The translations under genes were made by a program, and so were the position numbers. Under the pieces are notes generated by a model. That model did no database searches and had not been told where the DNA came from. It saw only the letters and a program-made list of their open reading frames with translations. Positions 8,126-22,967 of a DNA stretch of 64,000 nt are shown piece by piece. Position 1 is the stretch's first letter. Each line of letters opens with the position of its first letter. Source of the stretch: Paramecium tetraurelia (lineage: Eukaryota); assembly GCA_000165425.1 (NCBI GenBank), contig CT868012.1:186001-250000 (forward strand), given 5' to 3'.

Positions 8126-9506
8126 ATGTTAATCTAAAAGTAATATCGATTATATTTTAGAACCAAAATAAAGAAAATTATATCTTATTTCTGCATACAT
8201 TACATTTACTTTAACTTATTTGCATTGTTATTTGCTCTATTCCAATATAATCGAATTCCTTTTGCAATTCCATTAGGATTGAGCATTACCTAAGAAATCT
8301 TAATATGCTATTACTATTCAAACAAAGAAATCGTCAAGATGCTTGACCATGTTCTGCACATTATGGCATACGTAATTTCCACAAATATTACTCAAGAACT
8401 TTGTTATCATCCTTTTCTACACAAACCTCCAATATTATATATTTGGAAATTTGTTTTTCCTTCTATCCTTTGTTATCAGAACTAAAGAAAGTTGTTAATC
8501 GTAAGTAACGCATGAATATTCTTCCATCATTAGATTTGTAAACAAATAAATTCATTATCAATATAGTTAAAAACCTTTTATAGATTTTCATAACTGATAG
8601 CAAGCGTTTGCATCTCCCTAAAACTTAGTAAATACGTTGAATGGACTTGGCCTTAAGCATTCTGGTGGTACTGGATGTTTCTGAGTGCTTTAGTTGGTAC
8701 AAGCTTTACTTTAGTTATTCTACTTCTATCAAAAATTATTAATGAAATCTTCAAGCAATATCAGACAGTTCCTTAAGAATGTAAAAAATATTTTAATATT
8801 AGATAAATCCCTCATTTGGGCCCTTTACATTTCAATAATAAGCAGCGTTCTTTCTATCATGTGGATTATTAACACTTTCAATATCTTAGGATTGGATATG
8901 CCAATTGTAATAGGAGAAGTGCTGTTTTATTCTACAGTTTCTTCCAATTTAGTACTATTTTGTGCTATTACTAAATTGTTTTGGGACTCCATTATTGATT
9001 ATTCTGTTGATATATTATAATCACAAATAACTGATATAGAATCACAAAGAGAATTACCTGCGATCTAAGTCATTTAATAAAAACAGTTTGAAAAAAAGAA
9101 GGCCGTTCATTAAATATTTTTAAAAAAGCTCTCATCGGCTTTTTTTAGATTGACAACTAAAGAAGACTTATTCTAATAATCGCAAAAGACTACAGATTTG
9201 ATGACTGAAAGAGGACAAACTAAAAAAATACTATAAACTACAGAAGTTGAATCCAAATAATTATAAGAAAACTAAAATAAATTAAATGAATCTAATTAGA
9301 AATGTATTATATGTTGTGAAAATCCACCTAATGCAGTTTTAATGATATGTGGTCATGGTGGAATTTGTTATAAGTGCGGATTGGAAATGGCTCAAAAAAG
9401 TAAAGAATGTTTTTTATGTCGATAAAAAATTGTGTTCATTTATGAAATCTCCAATTTTAATGACGACCTTATGAAAGTAGTAACAATAACTAAATTTAAT
9501 TACTGA
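8126..9506 (+). CDS. Multi-pass membrane protein with C-terminal C3HC4 RING finger (probable E3 ligase)
   Basis: Hydrophobic N-terminal two thirds (e.g. EWTWPQAFWWYWMFLSALVG), then CYICCENPPNAVLMICGHGGICYKCGLEMAQKSKECFLCR at about 9303-9422. The start could alternatively be the ATG at 8090. Confidence 0.85.
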
Positions 9507-9531
9507 TTATCTATTTTTAAATTAAATATAC

Positions 9532-12500
9532 TCAACTTTATTATTGTTTTTCCTAATTTGAATTTTCATTTAACTAAACAAGAAGTTCTGAACTTTTCGA
9601 TCTCTTATTATAATACTAGTCAGTTATCTATTTTCGTTTTGTATTTCTAATACTTCCAGATATAGACTCAGCTTATTTCTCTAGCACTAGTTACTCTGAA
9701 ATAAACAAACTTGCTCTAGGTCTAGTTTAAGGAGATTCCTCTGTTTAAATGGTCTCATTTTCTTATTATTATTATTATGAATATTCTAAAGCCGTTTTAA
9801 TAAAAAATTATCCAAAACTTAACATTGCCTTTGTATTTTACCCTAAAATAATCCTATTTTTGGGTTGTATTGAATTCTCAAACATATGAGTAAATAGTAA
9901 TAGTTAGCTTTATTTTAAAAATTTAGAAATTAATATTTTAAGTTCTTCTTTTTTTTGTTTCTGCTTATTTTCTACAACAGATTACTTAAAAAAACTATTG
10001 ATTGATAACACAGTGTTTCTTTTTTAAGGTTGAATGATACTAGATTTATTATTATTATTATTCTTATTTGTTGTTTACTTTTGCTAATAATTATTCATTT
10101 CAGTTCCTAAACTCATATCATAGAATTCTTTAAAGTTGGCAATTGGAAATTAGATTTTCCCAAAATTATTAACAAATTCATCATAAGTGGCTTTGACTCT
10201 CATAAATTCAATATAAATGGTCCATTCTTCCATTAATTCTTCGCTTGATGCTGAAAAATAGAAATCTCTTCGCGGCATTAATTTTTATCTTTTAAACCAA
10301 TTACCTGTTCTAATCTCAAAAGCATACTTTTAATTAACTTTTTCTTTGTCATTAAGTGGAACAATCTAATAGATACTACTAAGAATGATAGTGGCCAAAG
10401 CATTCTATGGTTATCGATGATAGTCTTATTCACTATAATAATATTTTAATTCTTTTTAGGTCATTAAACAATATCTTTCTGCCCAAGTGACATTCTTATC
10501 TGATTTCTTTTTCAACAAACCAAGTTTGATATTGTTAGTTTTAGCTATTAATTTAGTCTATATCGATTTGATTATTATAGATCTTTTGGCTTTATGAGAT
10601 AATTCTAATCCCCTTGGTTTCAGGTTTGATTAACTATGCCACTTTTATTCAGCCAGAATCCAAGTATGCTCTAATCTTTGGGCTTCCAATTTTTCATCAA
10701 TTTCAAACTAAGATGGAATTTCTTATAATGCTTGTGCATAATATTTATGCAATTCCCTCCGTTAAGAGTACAGTAATCGTTAATAGATTATTTCTCTTAG
10801 GAATGGTTTAGCAAACCTGTAATACTTATTCAAATCATTAAGTTCCATGGTTTCAATGATTTCCAACTCTTCTAAACTATTTAAAATCTTAATCAAATTT
10901 TCTTTTTAGATGACTTCTTTGAATGGTTGTATCTTATTAAGTGTTTGTACATCAAAGATGTCTCCAATAACAGAGGCTACCTTAAGTATCAATAAATCTA
11001 AGCACCCCACCTTGTCCAAATAGGGTGAATTAAGTCTAAACTTATTTAAGGGAGCCTCTAGTATAATAAACTCATCTAGATTCAATATGTTTAAGAGGGA
11101 ATCATTTACTATAACTACATCTTATTATTTATTATCGACAACCAAGTAATTGCACTTCAAAAATTTTTCGATCTAGATTAATGTATAAATTAATTTATAC
11201 TAAAGTAATGAAGGTGAGCGGGTTGCCTTGGGTTTTTCGATAGAGGGTTTACAAGAAAAATTCTTAAGTATTTGATTGTATTAATTAATTTTTGATGTAT
11301 TCGTAATGCAAAATGTTTTTGTCTATTGAATTGGATGGTTCTTGATTCTTTGAACATCTAATCTTATTGATACGAAATAAATCAGATAACAAAACCTAAT
11401 AGTCATTTAATGAAATATTGTTGAAACTTATGTGTTCAAAATTGCTGAGATCATTTAATTTTGACTTTATTGATTCGAATCCCTCTTCAATCATTTGAAT
11501 TTGAGTTTGGTGTTATTCTTGAAATTAGAATTGCTCAAAGTAATCGTGTCTGAATATAAATATGAGCAGGATAAATTAATTGTGTTTCATAAAGTGTCTA
11601 ATGATTTTTAGGGATTCTTCATCAATGTTATGTCCATCATCTAGAACGAAGATTTACTTATGATTGTTGGTGATAGATTGAAATTTCTTGAATAATAAAT
11701 CTAGACCTTCTTTGACTAGTTGAATATCTAAGGTTTCTTAAGAATCGTTTGTATTTTTAAATTGATTATCAAATAGTTAGATTTAACTAATCGGTTGAAA
11801 GTCAAAGAGTTATATGAGTTGATCTTATTGTTAATTGAAAATTTCATTGAATAACTAAATGTCATACACTTTATTTTATTTGATGGCTATCTACTTCAGG
11901 AAATGTTGGAATATAATTTTGATAGCATACAAATATTATTGTTCCTTCTGCAAAAAGGAACACAATCTAATCTATACAAAGTGAAAATTCTCCTAAAATA
12001 AGTCAATGCTTTGTTTAACAGAATAGGATTTCCCAGATCCTTAATTTCCAGAAACTTTCAATAATACATTCGATTCATTTTGTAGTTGAAATTATTGAAT
12101 TCTTCTTTAGATTAGTCTTAAATTACTAATATCAAATAAATAATTATCGAGAAGCCTTGGAAAGAAAGGGTTATGAATTCTAATTTTATTCAACTCCAAA
12201 TTGATTTCTGGGTAATAGATATTGACTTAGTCTGCTTTTCCTTTAACCATAACTGATTTATAAAAAGAAATGTTCATTTTATATGAAGCTTCCTTTGATG
12301 TTTCAACATCAAGTAAAATGGAATGTTGATCATCTTTACATGCAATTTACATGAGTCTAGCTGCAAGATTAACAGCATCTCCTATAACTGAGTATCTATA
12401 GATAAAATTGATATTTTTAATACTCTCTTCTAGAACCACTAGTTCCGACTACACCAGCAAAAGTGCATCCAGTTGATATGCCAATTTTACATCCACAATT

Positions 12501-13641
12501 GATTGCATCTAATTCCGATTTCATTGTTATAGCAGTCATCACAGCTCTGGCAGGATCATCCTATTTAGCCATAGGAGGTAGACCAAATACTACAATCAAT
12601 GTTGATCCCTTGTCATCCATTAAGATTTTATTGAGAGATCCTTAGAATGCATATATTGATTTTTATACTGTTTCTACAACTTATTAAATATGACTTAACC
12701 CATTAGAAGTGAGAGCTGCTGACAAATCAATACTCAAATTGATAAACATTATTGTTAATATTCTTAATTCAGAACTCCATTTTTCCTAATCTACCTAAAT
12801 TTATACGAATACTTACAAAGATGTATTACTATAAGGCAGCAGGAATGTATCGTATTAATTGACTCTTAATTGATTCGAATGATTGAGCACTAATGTTACT
12901 CTTAATTAAGAGAGCATTTGAAATATTCTATACCTTAGCTCCTTTATTGAAGTTCACAAAGTAAGACTAACGATCCTCCACTTTTATACAATTATAATAC
13001 TATCCCACCATATCGAATACATCCTTGGATATTATCACTTAGCCTCCTTTAGTGGCACAATGTTCACTCTCAAATGCCTAGATCAAAGCCTAACCTGTTG
13101 CTAGAAATTCATTCCTATTGAACACTCCTCCTACATATAAGATGTTGATATCTCCTACTCCAAATCCTATTTTGACAGATAATTTTATATTCTCTAGGAT
13201 GAAGGTATCATTTAATTTAGCCTAAATATCTAAGGCACTTTATATTCCTTATCGCAGTAGGATTTTGAGTTACTCGCCTTTATCATTTTATCCTGTTGGA
13301 GGTGGCCATACTACTATAATAGCATCGCCTGCAAATTTGAAAATGTCACCTCCACTTTTGGATATTGATTTAATCAATAATTCCATGTATCTATTGATTG
13401 CAAATGCTATCACTTCTGATCCCTCCGGTCCTATTTTAGAGAGTTGTTCTGTTAAGTTTGTGAATCCACAAATATCTGCAAACATGATGACACTCTTGAA
13501 TGACTGGATTTCTGGAACATGCTGTTTAATTCCCTTGATCTAATTTTCAAGTATATGCTAAAACACCAGAGCTGGTATGAAGCCTAATATGGATTGAATC
13601 TTAACATTGCTTTATAGATTAACATTCTATTAATTTATCAT
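9532..13641 (-). CDS. Soluble adenylyl cyclase (ADCY10/sAC)-like enzyme: tandem class III cyclase domains, STAND P-loop NTPase, PH domain
   Basis: C1: MFADICGFT and DIFKFAGDA. C2: GSLNKILMDDKGSTLIVVFGLPP and GISTGCTFAGVVG...EYSVIGDAVNLAARLM. Walker A SGNQGSGKS (~12030-12055), Walker B FVLDDGHNID, then TQGNPL, LKVASVIG and YRFAKPFLREIIYQRLLYSQRRELH. PH-like segment at ~10200-10530. No transmembrane segments seen. Confidence 0.92.
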
Positions 13642-13912
13642 ATTAATTTATATATTAATTTGCCATCACTTTTGTGTTCTAACTTTTATTATTTGTATTT
13701 CTGAAATTCACATTTCTAATATATTTAGTTCATTAAACTGTATTGTTACTTATTACTTCAAGAGGATAAAACCTGTATTTTCAGCATTTTGGGGCTAATT
13801 TATAAATTTAGAAAATTAGAAATCAAAATAAACAGAATAATATAGTTTATATTGTTAAATGATGTTTTTACCCTTTTCTATAAAGATGAATCGAATATGT
13901 TTATATTAATTT
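13642..13912. promoter_or_regulatory. Putative bidirectional promoter region between the cyclase and the first histidine kinase
   Basis: 271-bp AT-rich gap between two divergently oriented ATGs (13641 on -, 13913 on +). Positional inference only; no specific element identified. Confidence 0.4.
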
Positions 13913-16814
13913 ATGAATTATTAAATACTGTTTTATACACAAATCATCCAAAACATCTGGTGGATTATCGGGTCATTGGTTTTTTATGATCCTAATGAAT
14001 ATTTCATTTGTGGTCTATCTATAGCAATCATCATTATTCGGATAATTCTAATTGTATTGGAGAAATGGGTGAAGGAAACACTCCTATATCAAATTTTATA
14101 TTTGCTCCTTAATTGTTTGTATACGGAAGTAAGTATAAGAATGCCGATGAATAATCCCTTTGTTAATCATTCAAATTCAATCATGATTATAGCCAACTAT
14201 TGTTATGCAAACACAGATTAATAGCAGAATATTCAAATTATATCAAAATTAGGATTTCCAGTTTATTCAATTCTAAGAACGCTTTCCATCACATTCATTT
14301 AATCCAATTATACAATATTGGAAAGCTGTCTCATCAATCTGATATTTTTATGCCTCGTTACCCAAGACTTGATAATGTCTAAGATCGATGGAACCTAAAG
14401 TGCTACAAAGTAACTTAATTTAAGTGATCAACATAATTTCAATTCTCAATTTATGACATTTGTTCAATAAGATTCCAGAAGACAGTCGTTTGGAGCATCC
14501 TTCAAAAAAAGCAGGACTCATTATTCACAATAACCTTAGGAGAAACAAGAAGTCTTTTCCAGCATTCCTTTAAATAATAAACCTTATACAACCGAAGACA
14601 ATATAAGGAACTAATTTCCATCAATGCAGAAGAAAAAGAGTTTTAATAAAAAAATTTCAATTGTTAGTGTGGATAAAGCAGATCAGCCTCTTCACACATT
14701 TTTCTAGAATTTAATAAATAGTATTTTCTCTGCAGGAGTAATAATATTGAATTAAAATTAAAAAGTAACCTTTATGAACAATAAGTGTGAAAAATTACTA
14801 GGATAAAGAGGAACTGATAAAGTGTTGGACAGCATCAAAAAAATTATACTAGAGAATTCTTTATTAGAAGAAGATGAATCACCTTTAACATCCATTCCTC
14901 CTCGATCTTAGGCTTAGATGAATAAGGCAACATTTGAACGAATTCTAAAGTAACATCGGAACAATCAATAAGAGTTAAATATCTTTGATGCCTTTTTGCA
15001 TCCTCAAAACTACTTAAATTCACTGTATTAAACAGTTTCTCCAAACTATGAATTTGATTAGAGGAGTAGTATGTCCGAATCATTCAATGAGACATTTGTC
15101 CAAAGGAAAGATGTTGTTACTTATGAACACATCATGAATCAAGAGGGGTGCCCTCTTAAGAAGTTAAGAATCGTAATTATTCCCACCTATATGACTTCTT
15201 CTTAGCAGGATTAACTTTCTTAACCCTCATTACAGAAGGTCCTCATTAACAAGGCTACCAACATAGATGCAGTTCAGCCTATCATTGTTATCAAAATCAA
15301 GAATATAACTAAGAAACACAAAATTGAGCAGATGAATAAGGAAAAAGAGACTCATAATTCACTACTAAAATCCTTTTCTCATGAGTTGAAAACACCGTTA
15401 AATAGTTGTTAGGATATGTTACTGATCATTAAGGATAGGATACAGGATTAAAAATTGTAAGTTTGTGTTGAAATAGCTCATGTTTCAATTATCTTTCTTA
15501 TTCATTAAATAAATGACATTTTAGATTATGCAGCTATGTAATCGAATACTTTTAAATATAGATATACTCTATTTAACATGTAAGAGTTGATAGAAGATAT
15601 TAAATATATTTATAACGGTTAATTGGAATCTAAGAAAATAGAATTTAATATCAAAATAGATGATAGAGTGAACAATTTGAATATACGATCTGACAAATAA
15701 AGGATCATGCAGGTACTTATCAATTTGCTAAACAACTCTAGTAAATTTACTCCTCAAGGAGGTAAAATAGTACTATCTATCAAACCAGTTGAAAATCACC
15801 TTATCAAAATTTAAGTGAAAGACTCAGGCATTGGCATTGGAACTGAATAACTGTCAACCTTAAGAAAGGTTCTGACCAGCTCTATGGGAAAGAGTCTTCA
15901 TCGTTCAAGAATTAAGAAGAGTCTAGGATTAGGATTAAATATTTCTGCCAGAATAGTCGAAGGATTAGTTTAAAAGTATGATGGCACTCTAGAAATCAAT
16001 TCCAAACACAAAAATTAAGGAACTAAAATATATTTTAAAATAGAATACCAAATGTCCTTCAGAGACGAAACTCTAAGAAATCCGATGATCTCTGAATACA
16101 CTAACAAACATAACACTTATAAATAAATGATCTCATAAAATGAACCTAGTCAATTAGAACAGGGAGGTTAGAGTTTGTTAAGATAATATTCAGAGAATTC
16201 TAAAAGTCTTGAACAGATGTCTCCCTCTAAACAGAGTAAAAACACAAAGAGTAGATTCTACAAATTAATGCCAGCAAGTTAGACTGAGAGTTCCCTTGAA
16301 ATGGTCGACAATGCTGTATATAATATAGAATTACCAATAAGTCCTGATTATTTTAGATACAAATCTCAAACCTAAAGTCGCACTTGCTAATTGTGCACTC
16401 AATGCATTCAAGTTTTAATTGTGGATGATGTCCCATTCAATTAGATAGCACTGAAGGCATTATTGCTACATTATTATAAAATATAGGCAGATTAAGCATA
16501 TGATGGATATTAAGCCATAGAGATGGTTAAGAAATAAACATTAAAGCACTGTCAATATTATGCTTTGATTTTTATGGACATTGAAATGCCAGGAATTAAT
16601 GGATTCTAAGCAACAAGAGAAGTAATCAAATTTATTTATTATATATTAGATACTTGAAATTACATAAGCCTCTACTGAGATTGTGATGTGTTCAGCTTAT
16701 GATACGGAAGAGAACTTTAGGGAGGGAGAGGAGGTGGGAATATCTGAGTTCTTACCAAAACCTGTTCACTAAAAAGACTTGGAACGGATTTTAAGACAAT
16801 TTAGTTTGATATGA
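13913..16814 (+). CDS. Membrane hybrid histidine kinase 1 (TM sensor, PAS-like, HisKA, HATPase, receiver)
   Basis: H-box KSFSHELKTPLNS, N-box DKQRIMQVLINLLNNSSKFT, G1 VKDSGIGI, G2 LGLGLNIS. Receiver VLIVDDVPFN...LIFMDIEMPGINGF...CSAYD...FLPKP. Intron 16622-16649. Confidence 0.93.
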
Positions 16815-17037
16815 TATATTTTTTATTATTTCTCCACTTATTTTAGATTGTTATTAAGGTAGCATGTAAATGGGCGTGTACGAAAAGTATAAATTAATCA
16901 ATTTAAATAATAATTTATCTGATTAAATTAGATCTGTATGAGCTAATTAATAATAAGTATAATACTGTATTTGCTATTTGTAAAGAATTTTCACATATTT
17001 AAATAAAATAAAATCAATATTAGGATAAGCCCGGATA

Positions 17038-19856
17038 ATGAATCATAAATACATTTTCCTTATACAAGTTATTTAAAACATCTGGTGGATTGTCGAAATG
17101 TAATTTATTAAAAAGTCATCAAATTACACATATTATTTTTTGTGTTCATTATGCTTAACAACAAGGTTACTTGCCTCTATAATATACTTAAAAAAACACT
17201 AGAAGTACGACCGATTTATTCTCTTAACTACTTTAGCCAATAATGTTTGCTACACTGAGGCCAATATTAACTTTGAAAGCCAGAATTTATATTTAAATCA
17301 TATCAACACTTTAGTCATCCTTCTAAATTACATCGAGGCCCAAACACTAATAAAACATTAGTAACTGGATCTGCTCTCAAGATTTGCATTTCCTACTTAT
17401 ATCCTAATAAGATTGATCTCCCTAATATTCATATAGTTTGATATCCAACTCTGTGAAGCTACTACTTTGATGGCCTTGTTTTTATTTGTGTACTTTTCAA
17501 AATAGGATGACGCTATGCATTAAACACAATCTCATCCAAAATTAGACCAGTCCTTATAAAATTGTTCTGTCTCTATGCATTAATCGTAACCCAAATAAGA
17601 AAAGCGCCTCACTTAAAATTCAAATAAACTCATCCTCTAACCTGACAAAAACTCATAACCCAGAAATAGTATCTAAATTAACATCAAAGACTCTTACAGG
17701 GAAGAAAGTGCTCCCATTCCTACATTTCATTCTAAACTTAGACCAGGCTTCAAAAGCTAATATTCACATTTAGTAGTCGACAGAAATGACTCTTAACTAT
17801 AAAATTTCTATTAGAATCTTGTCAACGTTTTGCCAGAAGGAGTTATAATGTTAAATAAGTTTTAGCAAATTCAATTCATTAGTTCAAAATGTGAAAAGCT
17901 ATTGGAATGTGATGGGAAAGAAAGAGTGCTAGAATACATCAAAAGGTGTCTGGCTAATTGCGATTTACCAGAGGATGTTTAATCGATAACAAAAACAAGA
18001 TGTAAATTGACATAAAGAGTTTTGGAAGAAATAATCAGAATTTATAAGTAGAATTCTCAGGAATTAGATATTTTTGATGTCTTATTGAATCCGAACAAAT
18101 ACATCTAGGCCTTGTTTTCGGGATAGAACGGGTCATTTGAACAAGAGAGAAGTAGTTCTGGTTCAATTTATTTTTCTGATCCTTCTCAATTATAGGAACA
18201 CACTTTTTGCTTTGAAGGCTCAATTGATAAGGAGAAGTGTGATCAATCTAAGAAGCTTAAGTTTATTTTGGTTTAAACTTCAATGACGTTGAGTTAATAG
18301 GAAGCCATCTCATAGAATGGTTTGACCAATTCAAAAAAGTAGAATACGAACGATATGCCTCAACCAATTCTTTTGATCCTAATTAAGAATACCACACATA
18401 AGAATAGAGTGAGGGAATTGAAAAAGGAGAGATTAATTAACAACTCACTCTTGAAGTCCTTTTCACATGAATTGAGAACTCCTTTGAATAGTTGTTAGTA
18501 TATGCTGAATCTGATCAAGGAGGTCTCAAAAGATGAACGTATAGAGCAATACCTAAACACAGCATAAAGTTCAATTAAATTATTAATCTACTAAATAAAT
18601 GATATTTTAGATTTTGCTGCTATGTAATCAAAGACTTTCTCTTATCATACAACTTCTTTTTGTATCAAGGATTTTATTTAAGAGATCCATGAGTTGTATG
18701 ATCAACAAGTAAGTTATAAAAATATCAAACTAGAAATCTAATATGATTAATCTTTATAAAATCAATTTTTCATCAATGACAAACAAAGAATTATGCAAGT
18801 CTTGGTTAACTTATTAAATAACTCTTGTAAATTTACAAAGCCTGGTGGTGAGATTCTTATACTATTTAGACAAATGAAAGGCAATTTAATCGAAGTGTCT
18901 GTTCGAGATAACGGAATTGGAATCTAATCGAATAAGTTGGAATAGCTTAGAAAATCCTTCTGTAAGCCCTCCTCCTAAATATGTTAAGATTCTGGCCTTG
19001 GATTTGGTTTGAAGATAGCTGGGAAAATCATCAAAGGATTAACCTATAATAAAACATACTTGGACATCAACTCAAATACCAAAAGTGGAACCCAAGTTTC
19101 TTTTCTATTTTAAAACTAAGAAATCATGAATTAGGAATGCTTACTATCTCCATAACAAAGTAATATCACTGGTAGATTTGAAATATTGTCTCCTGCCTCC
19201 TCCTCCCATCTTATCCCAAAATCAGAATCCTTGATGAAAGGTCTGCACTAGAAATTTGAAAGTCCCCAGAATGAATCAACCATCCTTAAAGAACAATTAG
19301 AAAGTCCCAGAATCAAGGACGACCAACAAAGTTCAGTGGTTATTCCGATAAGTTCTTATCTTTTCAAAGATAATCTTACTCAAAAGAATAAAAAACAGAG
19401 TTCAATATTATCTTTTTAAATAAATGCCAATAACAATTGTGAAAGTTGCTCATAAATCCTAATAGTTGATGACATACCATTCAATCAAATTGCATTCATT
19501 TAGACATTAAATTATTTCAAAATAAACGCCGAGTCTGCTTTTGATGGGTACCAAGCCGTTGAGATGGTGAAGTAGAAATTGACCAAACACTGCAAGTTCT
19601 ATAGATTGATATTCATGGATATTGAAATGCCAGGTTAAAACGGTTTTTAGACTTCTAAAATTGTAAGAGTACTTCTTTATATAATTAGATCTCGTAAATG
19701 CCTGGTGTCCAATCAATAATCGTTATGTGTTCTGCGTACGATACTCTTGAAAATTATAATTGTGCCCAACAAGTAGGAATAACTGAATTCTTGCCAAAAC
19801 CTGTAAATAAGAAAGAGTTAGATAAAATCCTAAAAAAGTATTTATTCAAAATTTGA
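17038..19856 (+). CDS. Membrane hybrid histidine kinase 2
   Basis: KSFSHELRTPLNS, DKQRIMQVLVNLLNNSCKFT, VRDNGIGI and SGLGFGL. Receiver ILIVDDIPFN...IFMDIEMPG...LPKP. PAS-like LVNVLPEGVIMLN. Intron 19663-19688. Confidence 0.93.
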
Positions 19857-20071
19857 ACAAAGTTTTAATCTATGTATGTTTTTACTAAAGAATTAATAAT
19901 TATTAATAAAGGAACAGTTTTTATTATCTGACTCAAAATTAACATTTTGATCCCTTATTCTTAAATTTTGAATCCTTAATTAAATATTTTGGTTTATAAC
20001 AAAAATCCTAATTTTTTTAAAACTCTCAGTAATTTAATTTGTTTAATAAATAGAGACATATTTATTACTTC

Positions 20072-22967
20072 ATGAAACTATTCAAAGTACTTGCAACTCA
20101 TATAATATTGATTGCCAATATTCTCCAAAGTTTGTGGTGGATGATAATGGCTTTATATTTGATCTAACCAAATGACTACATAGTGTTTTATTTACAAATA
20201 GTGTGTGTCACCATGAGGGTTTTATAATAAATATTGATCGCCAGAAATTATGGTTTGTTTTTATTTGTGCATATAGTATCTCTTTTTTACTACGTGACGT
20301 ATATTGAATCTTTGCTGCTATTTCAGAATGATTACTCATTGGGCATCTTCTCAAACAGTTTATTAATAATTGTTACTTACAATTCATATTTGAAATTTGC
20401 AGTTTAAAAGTGGAGTTAGATTTGTAAGTTGGGACTTCCATTTTATATTATATTAAGACTAATCTCCATCATATTTATTACTTTTAGTTATTATTCCCTA
20501 GAAAGCCTATTAATAATAATCATTGTTTTAGTTTAATATTTGTTAACAACAGATTAATAAATTGAGCGAATTCATGTGAACAATAACTAAGAAAAAGTCA
20601 AACCTAAAATAAATGCCAGAGTGCCAGAATTATAATTGAAAATAGTGGAAGAGAAGGAATCGCCTCATTATCTGCAACAATCTTTACTAAAATCCTTAAG
20701 CAGAGCCTCACTGATCCAAACACCACTGAAAAGTTAAAGCATTTTGATGAAAGACCAACAAAGCGATTCGAAAATGGGATTATTATCAAATTTAACCAAT
20801 TTATCAAAATCCAACAAGAATAACAAGGGTTCTAGTTCTGAAAAATCAGATTTATAGTTACACATATTTTACTAAAACCTTATCAATATATTTCCATAAG
20901 GCATTTTGATATTGAATCAATTCTAATAAGTCAGTTATATGAATAATAAATGTGAAAAACTATTGGAATGTTAAGGAGGGGATCAAGTGTTGGAGAAGAT
21001 AAAGATATGTGTTAACGATGCCAAAATGTCAGACAATGAAAGTGAAGTCTCTAACTTTTTGTAAACCCCAAAACAAAATAAGTAAATTAATTAATACACT
21101 CTCCAAAGGATAGTTAAGAAATTACAGAAGGAAAACAGAAAAGCAGACGTTCTAGATATTATGCTCTACCCTTAAAAATACTATGGAATTATAGATTAAA
21201 AAGCAGAGCCATGTAGTTAAGAAGATTCAAAAACTGATTAATTGACATTCCAATAGTAGGTGTTTATATACGAATGGTTAATGGAAACTGAATCACTGAA
21301 TAAAATCAATTAAAAGAAACTCAAATTGGTCATCATCCCAACATTCATGACTGGTCAACAGTAAGAATACATATCTCTTCCATCATAAAATAAGTGTTCC
21401 AGTAAATTGAACATCTAAATTAGTAATGATGCAGAAATACCAGTCCTTCTCATCATGATTAAGAATATTACTAGTAAACACAAGTATCAATAAATGAAGG
21501 ATGAATAAATTATTCACCATAGTCTTATCAAATCATTCTCTCATGAATTAAGAACTCCATTGAATTCATGTTAACATATGTTAAGCCTTATCAAGAATTA
21601 AGTCATAGAAAAGTCTGTGTTAGAATATATTGATATAGCCATGTGCTCTATTACCCTATTGATCCATCAGATTAATGATATACTTGATTATGCTGCCATA
21701 TAATCATACTCGTTCTCGTATCGCATAAATAAATTCACCATCAATTAGATCATCCAAGAAATCGAGAATCTCTATAAAATATAAATGAGACACAAATAAA
21801 TCAGATTCAGTATTAAAGTTAAACAGTCTTTGAGAGAAGCAATCATTTCTAATGACAAATAACGAATTCTATAGATACTGGTTAATTTATTAAATAATGC
21901 TGCCAAATATACAAAAGAGGGAGGGAAGGTTAAACTCACTATCAAGTAAAGTAGATAATACTATATTAAAATATAAGTGAAGGATAATGGTATTGGAATT
22001 GAAGATGATAAGTTAACCTTGATTCAAAATAGTTTGAATGGTAATTTGGAATTTGGTGCAAGATTAAAAACTCAACAAGTTACTTAAAAGGCAGGATTAG
22101 GCTTAAATATTGCAGCTAGATTGGTAGAAGGATTGGTTGAATAAAATAATAATTAATTGTTCATCAGTTCAATTAAAAACCAAGGAACAAAGGTCTAATT
22201 TTAAGTTTAGAATCTCATAAATGCTTCAAATGATTAATTTTAATCTAACTTAGTATCCTAATTGACAGGAAGATTCAATTAATCAGGTATTTAGGGAACA
22301 TTAAGTGAAAGAAAATTTGATGATAGATTGCTAATTAAGGCTATGAATTAAGATAGTTAATTTTAGGAGAATTATGTCTATGAATCAGAATCATCTTTGA
22401 ATACTCCTCAATTAAATGATTATGCTAAACAACCTTAGATATCTTTACCTATAAGTCCTGAGTACTTCTCTCATAAATTCATTTCTTCATATAAAAACAT
22501 TTTGCGTACAGATACAATTCAAAAGTCAACTTCAATGTGTGATAAGTGTGTTCATGTTTTGATTGTTGATGATATTCCATTTAATCAAATAGCACTCAAA
22601 TTGATGCTCAAACATTACCAGTTGGAAGCAGATCAAGCATTCGATGGGTTATAAGCAATTGAAAAAGTGAAAGCAAAATTTTCGGAACATTGTTCTACTT
22701 ATAAATTAATATTCATGGATATTGAAATGCCTGGCATCAATGGTTTTCAAACTAGTAAACAAGTAAGATTCCTTAGTTCTATTATAGATCAACGAATTGA
22801 CGAAGTAGCAATCAATGATCGTCATTTGTTCGGCCTACGATACTTAGGAAAATTTTATTGAAGGACAAAAAGTTGGGATCTCCACTTTTCTTCCAAAACC
22901 TGTAAAGTAGGACGAATTGGAAGTAGTGTTGAAGTAACTCTTTTAAATTAAAAGGAATTTTTTTTGA
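20072..22967 (+). CDS. Membrane hybrid histidine kinase 3
   Basis: KSFSHELRTPLNS, DKQRILQILVNLLNNAAKYT, VKDNGIGI and AGLGLNIA. Receiver VLIVDDIPFN...IFMDIEMPGINGF...LPKP. Intron 22763-22787. Confidence 0.93.

What the first reader, a model, noticed from the sequence alone, without database searches (positions are those of the whole stretch)
10200..10530. PH domain fused C-terminal to a cyclase-cyclase-STAND enzyme
Seen: after the STAND winged-helix motif the frame reads KLGLLKKKSDKNVTWAERYCLMTQKELKYYYSE...ALATIILSSIYQIV...YAFEIRT...RDFYFSASSEELMEEWTIYI. This is a typical PH pattern with the basic beta1-beta2 loop and C-terminal Trp helix. Established: mammalian ADCY10 and bacterial cyclase-STAND proteins have helical/TPR-like C-termini at this position. 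Inference: a phosphoinositide-recruited or lipid-gated soluble adenylyl cyclase, an architecture I do not recognise as characterised.
Basis: partly seen in the sequence, partly recalled or inferred. Interest (0 to 1): 0.75.

Follow-up and report, generated by a model that had tools for sequence, protein, structure and literature searches.

The report
PH domain on ciliate soluble cyclase
A Paramecium gene really does encode a soluble cAMP-making enzyme of the human ADCY10 type with a lipid-binding-type PH domain fused behind its ATPase switch, but this design is widespread and already catalogued in ciliates, water moulds and other protists, though never studied experimentally.

Summary
On the minus strand, under the ciliate code, a four-exon gene (13641..9532, three introns of 22-28 nt, 1343 aa) encodes ADCY10-like C1-C2 cyclase domains, a STAND P-loop NTPase with a winged helix, then a true PH domain at 10527..10210. 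PH evidence: Pfam 48.1 bits, E 1.9e-12; AlphaFold pLDDT above 90 over most of the PH region; TAPP1 PH Z 16.4, rmsd 1.4 A. The winged helix and the PH domain lie in one uninterrupted exon. Strand-specific RNA reads cover both.

The architecture is not new to databases. Several Paramecium species, Tetrahymena, Euplotes, many oomycetes and a chlorarachniophyte have it. Some relatives add FYVE, C2 or phosphodiesterase domains. A 2013 supplementary legend names Tetrahymena "PHC1,2", PH-containing cyclases. Nine literature searches found no experimental study.

Catalytic residues and the Walker motifs are conserved. The bicarbonate-site arginine of human sAC is never conserved. The PH pocket keeps its conserved lysines and arginines, but ciliates lack the middle basic residue of the canonical phosphoinositide motif.

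Phosphoinositide targeting or gating is therefore plausible but unproven. This is a catalogued, uncharacterised variant of sAC-like cyclases, of moderate interest.

The parts
12817..13641 (-). Exon 1 (ATG at 13641): N-terminus and cyclase domain C1. The equivalents of metal Asp D47 and D99 and of Lys95 are present.
   Evidence: Human ADCY10 is the best solved match, E 5.6e-17.
12795..12816 (-). Intron 1, 22 nt, GTAAG...TAG, Paramecium-type tiny intron.
   Evidence: The junction is identical in orthologue P0005.
12424..12794 (-). Exon 2: first part of cyclase domain C2, holding the K334 and D339 equivalents.
12396..12423 (-). Intron 2, 28 nt, phase 2.
   Evidence: The junction is confirmed by orthologues.
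11201..12395 (-). Exon 3: end of C2 (Ser at the T405 position, N412 and R416 equivalents) and the STAND P-loop NTPase. Walker A lies at 12049..12026, Walker B at 11653..11630 and the GNPL motif at 11227..11210.
   Evidence: AAA_22 scores 27.4 bits (cut-off 27). AAA_16 scores 28.7 bits, below its cut-off of 32.6.
11173..11200 (-). Intron 3, 28 nt.
   Evidence: The junction is confirmed by four orthologues.
10813..11049 (-). Winged-helix domain of the STAND module (exon-4 residues about 42-120).
   Evidence: Secondary structure of the AlphaFold model, pLDDT mostly 84-96. Bacterial AAA_16-TPR proteins match this part of the query.
10546..10800 (-). Helical arm between the winged helix and the PH domain (exon-4 residues 125-209).
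   Evidence: No Pfam family was found.
10210..10527 (-). PH domain (full-length residues about 1013-1118): seven strands and a C-terminal Trp helix.
   Evidence: Pfam 48.1 bits. Model. Foldseek TM up to 0.86. VIA-align Z 16.4 to TAPP1 PH, and all 50 listed rows are PH domains.
10144..10242 (-). Long C-terminal helix of the PH domain and a ciliate-conserved motif, [RK]xKAxYDxFxxxFGxIxFP.
   Evidence: Helix 311-337 in the model. Column conservation. The motif is absent from oomycete, chlorarachniophyte and PDE-fused relatives.
9532..10143 (-). Gln/Asn/Lys-rich tail with no known domain, ending in the only in-frame TGA (9534..9532).
   Evidence: No Pfam hit. Low pLDDT for the first 27 residues of the tail (exon-4 residues 345-371), the only part of it that was modelled. 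Conserved in frame among five aurelia-group sequences. RNA depth is sparse here.

Best explanation
The window comes from a Paramecium of the aurelia group. Its minus-strand gene 13641..9532 encodes a 1343-aa protein, taken as soluble (no transmembrane prediction was run), with five parts in order. First comes a tandem C1-C2 class III cyclase of the ADCY10 (soluble adenylyl cyclase) type with a complete catalytic residue set. Second is a STAND P-loop NTPase with a winged helix. Third is a short helical arm. Fourth is a genuine PH domain, sitting where bacterial relatives carry TPR sensor repeats. Fifth is a low-complexity tail. Shown here: the gene model, the PH fold, the fusion in a single exon, and conservation of this design across ciliates, oomycetes and a chlorarachniophyte. 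Inferred: the enzyme makes cAMP, because the adenine-specifying Lys is kept. It is probably not bicarbonate-regulated like human sAC, because the Arg176 position is never Arg. Also inferred: the PH domain uses its conserved basic pocket (full-length K1019, K1020, R1030, K1091, R1092, R1099) to bind an acidic phosphoinositide head-group. That binding would place or release the cyclase at particular membranes, while the NTPase acts as a nucleotide-dependent switch.
For: PH domain. Pfam gives 48.1 bits, E 1.9e-12. The AlphaFold2 model built on a 42-sequence alignment has mean pLDDT 84.3 and pTM 0.79, with a canonical strand and helix order. Foldseek gives 133 PDB hits at E<=1e-3, with target-normalised TM of 0.86 to TAPP1, 0.78-0.80 to Akt and 0.71 to Grp1. 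VIA-align gives TAPP1 PH Z 16.4, rmsd 1.4 A over 102 of 103 residues, and Akt PH Z 15.9.

Fusion. The winged helix and PH domain share one stop-free exon. Gene models are identical in 4 orthologues. PH follows the NTPase in 12 of 12 and 10 of 10 relatives scanned. Transcriptome-derived relatives P0254 and P0261 carry cyclase and PH on one transcript. Oligo-dT RNA-seq laid 33, 100 and 67 reads, all on the gene's strand orientation, from 13678 down to about 10055, covering the cyclase, the NTPase and the PH domain.

Enzyme. Human ADCY10 is the best solved match, E 5.7e-34 to 7.1e-34 over both domains, for the 96%-identical orthologue. Across the family, the D47 equivalent is kept in 19 of 22, K95 in 21 of 22, D99 in 22 of 23, K334 in 26 of 28, N412 in 25 of 28 and R416 in 23 of 28. 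The Walker A Lys is kept in 34 of 34 and the Walker B Asp in 38 of 38.

Lipid reading. Basic residues are conserved at K222 (38 of 42), K223 (39 of 42), R233 (40 of 42), K294 (39 of 42), position 295 (37 of 42) and R302 (39 of 42), in exon-4 numbering. Non-ciliate relatives carry W-K-x-R in strand 2. Relatives have added FYVE (12 of 120 listed) or C2 (5 of 120), both membrane-lipid modules. The abstract and section-11 passages of PMC3823935 report that Tetrahymena and Paramecium have class I PI3K, PTEN and Akt-like genes.
Against: No lipid binding, localisation or cyclase activity was measured. In ciliate members the first basic residue of the strand-2 [K/R]-x-R motif is missing: Ala in this gene, and basic in only 2 of 42 aligned sequences. 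From my own knowledge, most PH domains are weak or non-specific lipid binders, and some bind proteins instead. The net charge of the PH region varies from -2 to +16 across the family. The T405 position is Ser (25 of 28), so substrate choice is not settled. A Dictyostelium sAC homologue is, as I recall, a guanylyl cyclase. AAA_16 scores below its curated cut-off in this protein (28.7 against 32.6). Some relatives of the winged-helix-PH module show no Pfam cyclase domain: P0058, P0202 and P0206 show PH only, and P0029 shows AAA_16 only. RNA depth is only about 1x. No splice joint reached the listing threshold. Two of three runs have no read in 9451..10054, so the 3' part of the model is weakly supported by RNA.
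Confidence: 0.6

Rival explanations
1. The PH domain is a protein-binding or intramolecular regulatory module. It might dock a small GTPase or G-beta-gamma, or clamp the NTPase or cyclase as PH domains do in Akt, Grp1 and DH-PH exchange factors. It would not be a lipid-targeting device.
For: The canonical phosphoinositide motif is incomplete in ciliates. A pTM of 0.79 for the two-domain model suggests a fixed packing of the PH domain against the helical arm. A ciliate-specific, nearly invariant helix extension follows the PH domain and looks like an interaction surface. The structural neighbours include PH domains solved in autoinhibited or protein-bound states, such as Grp1, GRK2 and ARHGAP21-Arf1.
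Against: The residues best conserved across 42 sequences are basic residues at strand 1, strand 2 and strands 6-7, which as I recall line the canonical head-group site. The top structural matches are inositol-phosphate-bound PH domains. Relatives add further lipid-binding domains. The two roles are not exclusive.
Confidence: 0.3
2. The protein is a guanylyl cyclase or a catalytically altered enzyme. On this reading it would be a PH-bearing soluble cGMP source, not an adenylyl cyclase.
For: The position of human T405 is Ser in 25 of 28 family members. Pfam's family covers both activities. I recall that a Dictyostelium sAC homologue makes cGMP; no call checked this.
Against: The adenine-specifying Lys (K334 equivalent) is kept in 26 of 28. 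All metal and transition-state residues are kept. The closest solved relative is an adenylyl cyclase.
Confidence: 0.15
3. The PH part is a separate gene, or the fusion is an artefact of reading through under the ciliate code.
For: Under code 6 long open frames arise by chance: another frame is also open across the tail. RNA depth is too low to show one molecule spanning everything.
Against: There is no stop and no intergenic break between the winged helix and the PH domain. RNA coverage is continuous across 10055..11262 in runs X20 and X21. The fusion is conserved in 90 of the 120 best cyclase relatives (precomputed Pfam), including standard-code organisms such as oomycetes and transcriptome assemblies.
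Confidence: 0.02

Closest known systems
Mammalian soluble adenylyl cyclase ADCY10 (solved catalytic core, e.g. 4clf, 4oya)
   Same: Both have tandem C1-C2 in one chain, and ADCY10 is the best solved match (E 5.7e-34 to 7.1e-34 for the orthologue). The D47, D99, K95, K334, D339, N412 and R416 equivalents are conserved. As I recall, full-length ADCY10 also has a P-loop NTPase after the catalytic core; this could not be tested, since only the core is solved.
   Different: The Arg176 position of the bicarbonate site is Phe here and never Arg in 27 relatives. T405 is Ser. A PH domain follows the NTPase and winged helix, and no TPR family was detected.
Bacterial class III cyclase-AAA_16-TPR proteins (hits P0018-P0021; MalT/LuxR-type STAND)
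   Same: They share the cyclase plus AAA_16 NTPase and a homologous winged-helix region (E 1.9e-5 to 4e-4). The Walker A, Walker B and GNPL motifs are of the same type.
   Different: They carry TPR sensor repeats (PF13424, PF17874) where this protein carries a PH domain. They are prokaryotic.
Tetrahymena thermophila 'PHC1,2' / 'PH domain protein' (P0013), with Paramecium, Euplotes, oomycete and chlorarachniophyte homologues
   Same: They have the same cyclase-NTPase-PH order. They are 37-41% identical over the winged-helix-PH part and 54% over the cyclase. The ciliate members share the post-PH motif.
   Different: They are longer (1555-2300 aa). Oomycetes insert a FYVE finger and keep W-K-x-R in strand 2. 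Some unnamed or transcriptome members add C2, GYF and a phosphodiesterase. None has been studied experimentally, as far as my searches show.
Phosphoinositide-binding PH domains TAPP1 (1eaz), Akt (1h10) and Grp1 (1fhx)
   Same: The fold is shared: Z 16.4, 15.9 and 14.5, with rmsd 1.4-2.6 A. Lys at the end of strand 1 and Arg at the start of strand 2 are shared.
   Different: Identity is only 21-26%. The middle basic residue of the strand-2 motif is absent. This domain has a much longer C-terminal helix. Its ligand is unknown.
Dictyostelium CRAC, a PH-domain activator of adenylyl cyclase ACA (PMC2290948, PMC2291171; titles and abstracts seen in the listing)
   Same: The logic is shared: a PH domain links membrane recruitment to activation of cAMP synthesis.
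   Different: CRAC acts in trans on a transmembrane cyclase. Here the PH domain is in cis on a soluble sAC-type enzyme. No homology was tested.

Membership tests
PH domain (Pfam PF00169) | Profile score above the curated threshold | tested here: met
   48.1 bits against 25.1, E 1.9e-12.
PH domain (Pfam PF00169) | Seven-stranded beta-sandwich capped by a C-terminal helix with a conserved Trp | tested here: met
   Model strands 216-307 and helix 311-337. TAPP1 Z 16.4, rmsd 1.4 A. W317 is kept in 39 of 42.
High-affinity phosphoinositide-binding PH subclass | Full K-Xn-[K/R]-X-R motif in strands 1 and 2 (motif recalled from the literature) | tested here: not met
   The strand-1 Lys and strand-2 Arg are present. 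The middle basic position is Ala here and basic in only 2 of 42. The motif is present as W-K-x-R in non-ciliate relatives.
High-affinity phosphoinositide-binding PH subclass | Measured binding to a phosphoinositide | not testable with these tools
   No assay is possible. The complex predictor offers no inositol-phosphate ligand.
ADCY10 / sAC-type class III cyclase | Tandem C1-C2 in one chain, closest to ADCY10 | tested here: met
   One aligned stretch, 43-415 against 34-419 of 4clf/4cm2, E 5.7e-34 to 7.1e-34. Exon-wise E 5.6e-17 and 8.3e-10.
ADCY10 / sAC-type class III cyclase | Catalytic set: two metal Asp, adenine Lys, transition-state Asn and Arg | tested here: met
   The D47, D99, K334, N412 and R416 equivalents are present and conserved in the family.
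ADCY10 / sAC-type class III cyclase | Bicarbonate site Lys95 plus Arg176 (residue roles recalled from the literature) | tested here: not met
   Lys is present. The Arg176 position is Phe. Across 27 relatives it is F 13, C 11, I 2 and L 1, never R.
ADCY10 / sAC-type class III cyclase | TPR-like C-terminal region after the NTPase | tested here: inconclusive
   No TPR family at E<=1. A helical arm of about 85 residues was not searched on its own.
STAND NTPase (AAA_16 / MalT-like) | Walker A, Walker B and the GxP (GNPL) motif | tested here: met
   Motifs at 12049..12026, 11653..11630 and 11227..11210. Walker A Lys is kept in 34 of 34 and Walker B Asp in 38 of 38.
STAND NTPase (AAA_16 / MalT-like) | Profile score above the curated threshold | tested here: inconclusive
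   AAA_16 scores 28.7 against 32.6, which fails. AAA_22 scores 27.4 against 27, which passes. The P. bursaria homologue scores AAA_16 35.2.
STAND NTPase (AAA_16 / MalT-like) | Winged-helix domain after the NTPase and helical domain | tested here: met
   The predicted helix-helix-helix plus hairpin at exon-4 residues 42-120 has pLDDT mostly 84-96. It is homologous to bacterial AAA_16-TPR proteins. The fold was not searched on its own.

The most novel reading that the evidence does not exclude
The PH domain has replaced the TPR arm as the ligand-sensing domain of a STAND switch. Binding of a specific phosphoinositide at a membrane would release autoinhibition and trigger nucleotide-dependent assembly that turns on the sAC-type cyclase. 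This would be a lipid-gated STAND signalosome producing cAMP, shared across ciliates, oomycetes and Rhizaria. In some lineages it is hard-wired to a phosphodiesterase on the same chain.
Probability: 0.15. Interest if true: 0.7.

Novelty: new variant of a known kind. Interest (0 to 1): 0.4.

Why it matters
The role of the large NTPase-containing C-terminus of soluble adenylyl cyclases is still unclear, even in mammals. A natural family in which that module ends in a PH domain offers a tractable way to ask whether STAND-type switches can be driven by membrane lipids. Some lineages add FYVE or C2, which strengthens the case. It also offers a way to ask how cAMP production is localised in ciliated protists and in oomycete zoospores. 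Paramecium and Tetrahymena are easy to tag and silence. The gene itself is one more member of a family already present in public databases, so the value lies in the hypothesis and not in a discovery of sequence.

Tried and rejected
- Whole-genome access: no genome is held for this window.
I addressed taxonomic spread through the search for homologous proteins with the public orthologue P0005.
- Earlier findings of this scan: none.
- The look-up of sequencing runs: no RNA holder listed among the indexed runs. I laid three raw oligo-dT runs of the same species label instead. Run X1 (contigs, kind guessed) behaves like genomic DNA and shows no joints.
- Splice joints: none reached the listing threshold at about 1x depth with 58-nt reads. 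The introns therefore rest on GT...AG ends, frame restoration and identical orthologue models.
- The listing of cluster members gave no organism names for 10 metagenome representatives.
- Exon 3 alone found no solved structure at E<=0.01.
- The tail 9535..10209 has no Pfam family.
- One GTA...TAG candidate of 26 nt at 9653 in the tail was rejected as an intron, because the orthologue proteins read through it in frame.
- My first regular expression for the post-PH motif was too narrow and missed true cases. I replaced it with an alignment.
- PMC3383692, PMC12223298 and PMC2837644 were checked by term search only and say nothing about this family.
- Supplementary Figure S2 of PMC3823935 is an image. 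I saw only its legend.
Full report
**What is in the sequence**

The window is AT-rich (GC 0.23-0.34). Long open frames appear only when TAA and TAG are read as Gln.

On the minus strand, four frames join through three tiny introns with GTA...TAG ends. The introns are 22, 28 and 28 nt long (12816..12795, 12423..12396, 11200..11173). The spliced model runs from the ATG at 13641 to the TGA at 9534..9532. It has 4032 nt and 1343 codons. There are 64 TAA and 26 TAG codons in frame, and TGA appears only at the end.

The annotated proteins of P. octaurelia (96-97% identical over the last exon), P. primaurelia (90%) and P. sonneborni (two copies, 81-86%) show exactly the same three junctions. The source is therefore a Paramecium of the aurelia group.

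**Check of the observation**

It maps to 10527..10210.
- Pfam's PH model scores 48.1 bits, E 1.9e-12, against a cut-off of 25.1.
- I predicted the last-exon segment of 371 residues with AlphaFold2, using an alignment of 42 relatives. Mean pLDDT is 84.3 and pTM is 0.79. Ten of the thirteen 10-residue blocks covering the PH region (exon-4 residues 211-340) average above 90; the other three average 81, 74 and 87.
- The model shows strands at 216-223, 230-237, 241-245, 260-263, 267-272, 284-289 and 302-307, then a 27-residue helix at 311-337.
- Foldseek found 133 PDB chains at E<=1e-3. The domain-sized hits are PH domains: TAPP1 (target-normalised TM 0.86), PLEKHA7 (0.80), Akt (0.78-0.80) and Grp1 (0.67-0.71).
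- The Foldseek-independent search put TAPP1 PH first (Z 16.4, rmsd 1.4 A, 102 of 103 residues, 26% identity) and Akt PH second (Z 15.9). All 50 listed rows are PH domains.
- By sequence alone, the best solved match is the PH domain of KIAA0053, E 3.6e-8.

The PH fold is therefore confirmed by three independent routes.

**The rest of the protein**

*Cyclase.* Exon 1 and exon 2 each find human ADCY10 as the best solved relative (E 5.6e-17 and 8.3e-10). The full-length orthologue aligns to it in a single stretch across both catalytic domains, E 5.7e-34 to 7.1e-34. I read the residue equivalents off those alignments. The residue roles are recalled from the sAC structure literature.
- Conserved: D47, D99, K95, K334, D339, N412 and R416.
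- Changed: T405 is Ser, and R176 is Phe.
- Across the aligned relatives that cover each site: D47 in 19 of 22, K95 in 21 of 22, D99 in 22 of 23, K334 in 26 of 28, Ser at 405 in 25 of 28, N412 in 25 of 28 and R416 in 23 of 28. Position 176 is never Arg in 27 relatives: F 13, C 11, I 2, L 1.

*NTPase.* Exon 3 continues into a P-loop NTPase.
- Walker A Lys is conserved in 34 of 34 and Walker B Asp in 38 of 38.
- A GNPL motif follows.
- Pfam gives AAA_22 at 27.4 bits (cut-off 27) and AAA_16 at 28.7 bits (below its cut-off of 32.6).

*Winged helix.* The first about 120 residues of exon 4 are predicted as a winged helix. They are the part matched by bacterial or unnamed AAA_16 proteins that go on into TPR repeats (5 of the 18 hits).

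A helical arm of about 85 residues leads into the PH domain. After the PH helix comes a Gln/Asn/Lys-rich tail of about 200 residues. It has no Pfam family. pLDDT is low over its first 27 residues (exon-4 residues 345-371), the only part of the tail included in the model. The tail is conserved in frame among the five aurelia-group sequences.

**Is the fusion real?**

- The winged helix and the PH domain lie in one exon with no stop between them.
- Three oligo-dT RNA-seq runs of the same species label laid 33, 100 and 67 reads. Every one lies in the strand orientation expected for a minus-strand gene. They run from about 13678 down to about 10055, across the cyclase, the NTPase, the winged helix and the PH domain.
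- Depth is only about 1x, so no splice joint reached the listing threshold.
- Two runs have no read between 9451 and 10054. Only run X20 has a few reads at 9602-9903. The 3' tail is therefore poorly supported by RNA, and I cannot explain the drop.
- The strongest evidence is comparative. PH lies behind the NTPase in 12 of 12 relatives and 10 of 10 relatives scanned with Pfam. These include two transcriptome-assembly ORFs, P0254 and P0261.

**Distribution**

- The exhaustive search with the last exon found 404 cluster representatives at E<=1e-3, 104 at E<=1e-10 and 16 at E<=1e-30. Many long proteins match the winged helix and the PH domain in one stretch.
- Searching with the cyclase half of the orthologue gave 401 proteins at E<=1e-10. 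Of the 120 listed, 90 carry PF00169 in the precomputed annotation.
- The named hits are several Paramecium species with at least two paralogue groups, Tetrahymena thermophila, Euplotes (Moneuplotes) crassus, many oomycetes and the chlorarachniophyte Amorphochlora. The oomycetes include Phytophthora, Pythium, Saprolegnia, Aphanomyces, Plasmopara, Peronospora, Achlya, Lagenidium and Thraustotheca.
- Twelve of the 120 also have FYVE, 5 have C2 and 14 have a cyclic-nucleotide phosphodiesterase domain.
- Thirty of the 120 show no PH domain. Several of these are short and may be truncated.
- In a separate scan of 8 relatives of the winged-helix-PH module, three showed PH only and one showed AAA_16 only. 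The module is therefore not always detectably tied to a cyclase.

**What the PH domain may do**

Across the 42-sequence alignment, the best-conserved PH positions are basic residues, in exon-4 numbering:
- K222 in 38 of 42
- K223 (basic) in 39 of 42
- R233 (basic) in 40 of 42
- K294 in 39 of 42
- position 295 (basic) in 37 of 42
- R302 (basic) in 39 of 42

As I recall, the equivalent places (end of strand 1, start of strand 2, strands 6-7) line the inositol-phosphate pocket of Akt, Grp1 and TAPP1.

The position of the first basic residue of the strand-2 [K/R]-x-R motif is Ala here and basic in only 2 of 42. Oomycete, chlorarachniophyte and phosphodiesterase-fused relatives have W-K-x-R there.

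Ciliate members alone share a nearly invariant continuation of the C-terminal helix, [RK]xKAxYDxFxxxFGxIxFP.

The abstract and section-11 passages of PMC3823935 report class I PI3K, PTEN and Akt-like genes in Tetrahymena and Paramecium, so candidate lipids exist.

Taken together, phosphoinositide or acidic-lipid recruitment is the most likely role. I put it at about 0.55-0.6. A protein-binding or autoinhibitory role is the main rival.

**Comparison with what is known**

The protein is a sAC-type cyclase with a STAND module, as in mammalian ADCY10 and bacterial cyclase-AAA_16-TPR proteins. It differs in two ways. A PH domain stands where the TPR sensor arm is, and the bicarbonate-site arginine is absent.

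The design is not new to databases. Source names include 'PH domain protein', 'Adenylate cyclase', 'Adenylate cyclase type 10' and 'putative FYVE zinc finger, adenylyl cyclase class-3/4/guanylyl cyclase, pleckstrin'. [quoted passage not shown]

Nine full-text searches found no paper that studies such an enzyme. Subscription journals are outside that library.

**Verdict**

The gene is a member of a widespread, catalogued but experimentally untouched variant of soluble cyclases. Interest is moderate at 0.4. The bold reading, a lipid-sensing STAND switch driving cAMP synthesis, is not excluded. I give it about 0.15.

Noticed in passing
window 13598-22858, + strand: Three tandem paralogous hybrid histidine kinase genes lie directly upstream of the cyclase gene, in divergent orientation. 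Each has HisKA, HATPase_c and a response-regulator receiver domain. The receiver domain is cut by a frame change, probably a tiny intron.
   Followed up: partly
window 8685-9506, + strand: A C3HC4 RING-finger gene (47.6 bits) converges on the cyclase gene. Its stop lies only about 25 bases from the cyclase stop at 9532, so the 3' ends must abut or overlap.
   Followed up: partly
window 9451-10054: RNA-seq depth on the cyclase strand falls to zero in two of three runs and is sparse in the third, although the frame stays open and is conserved in orthologues. The tool also reports reads cut at the AAT-repeat stretch 10038-10077. Possible causes are internal oligo-dT priming, an alternative 3' end, or read filtering.
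   Followed up: no
window 10427 and 10438: In RNA run X20, 4 of 8 reads carry T>G at 10427 and A>G at 10438. By my reading of the codons, the first changes the Gln codon of exon-4 residue 249 and the second is a synonymous Tyr change. Strain difference, allele or a close duplicate copy are all possible.
   Followed up: no
relatives P0256, P0261, P0274 and 11 more rows: Some relatives carry a sAC-type cyclase, NTPase, PH, sometimes C2 and GYF, and a full cyclic-nucleotide phosphodiesterase (up to 278 bits) on one chain. Synthesis and breakdown of the messenger would sit in one protein. P0261 comes from a marine transcriptome assembly.
   Followed up: partly
relatives P0058, P0202-P0206: Proteins of 1774-2237 aa share the winged-helix-PH module (E 2e-17 to 2e-23). 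Of the three scanned with Pfam (P0058, P0202, P0206), none shows a cyclase or AAA family at E<=0.01, and precomputed annotation lists only PH for all six. Their N-terminal halves are unexplained.
   Followed up: no
window 12795-12816, 12396-12423, 11173-11200: All three introns are 22-28 nt and none is a multiple of three. Each shifts the frame, so retention would be caught by a premature TGA.
   Followed up: partly
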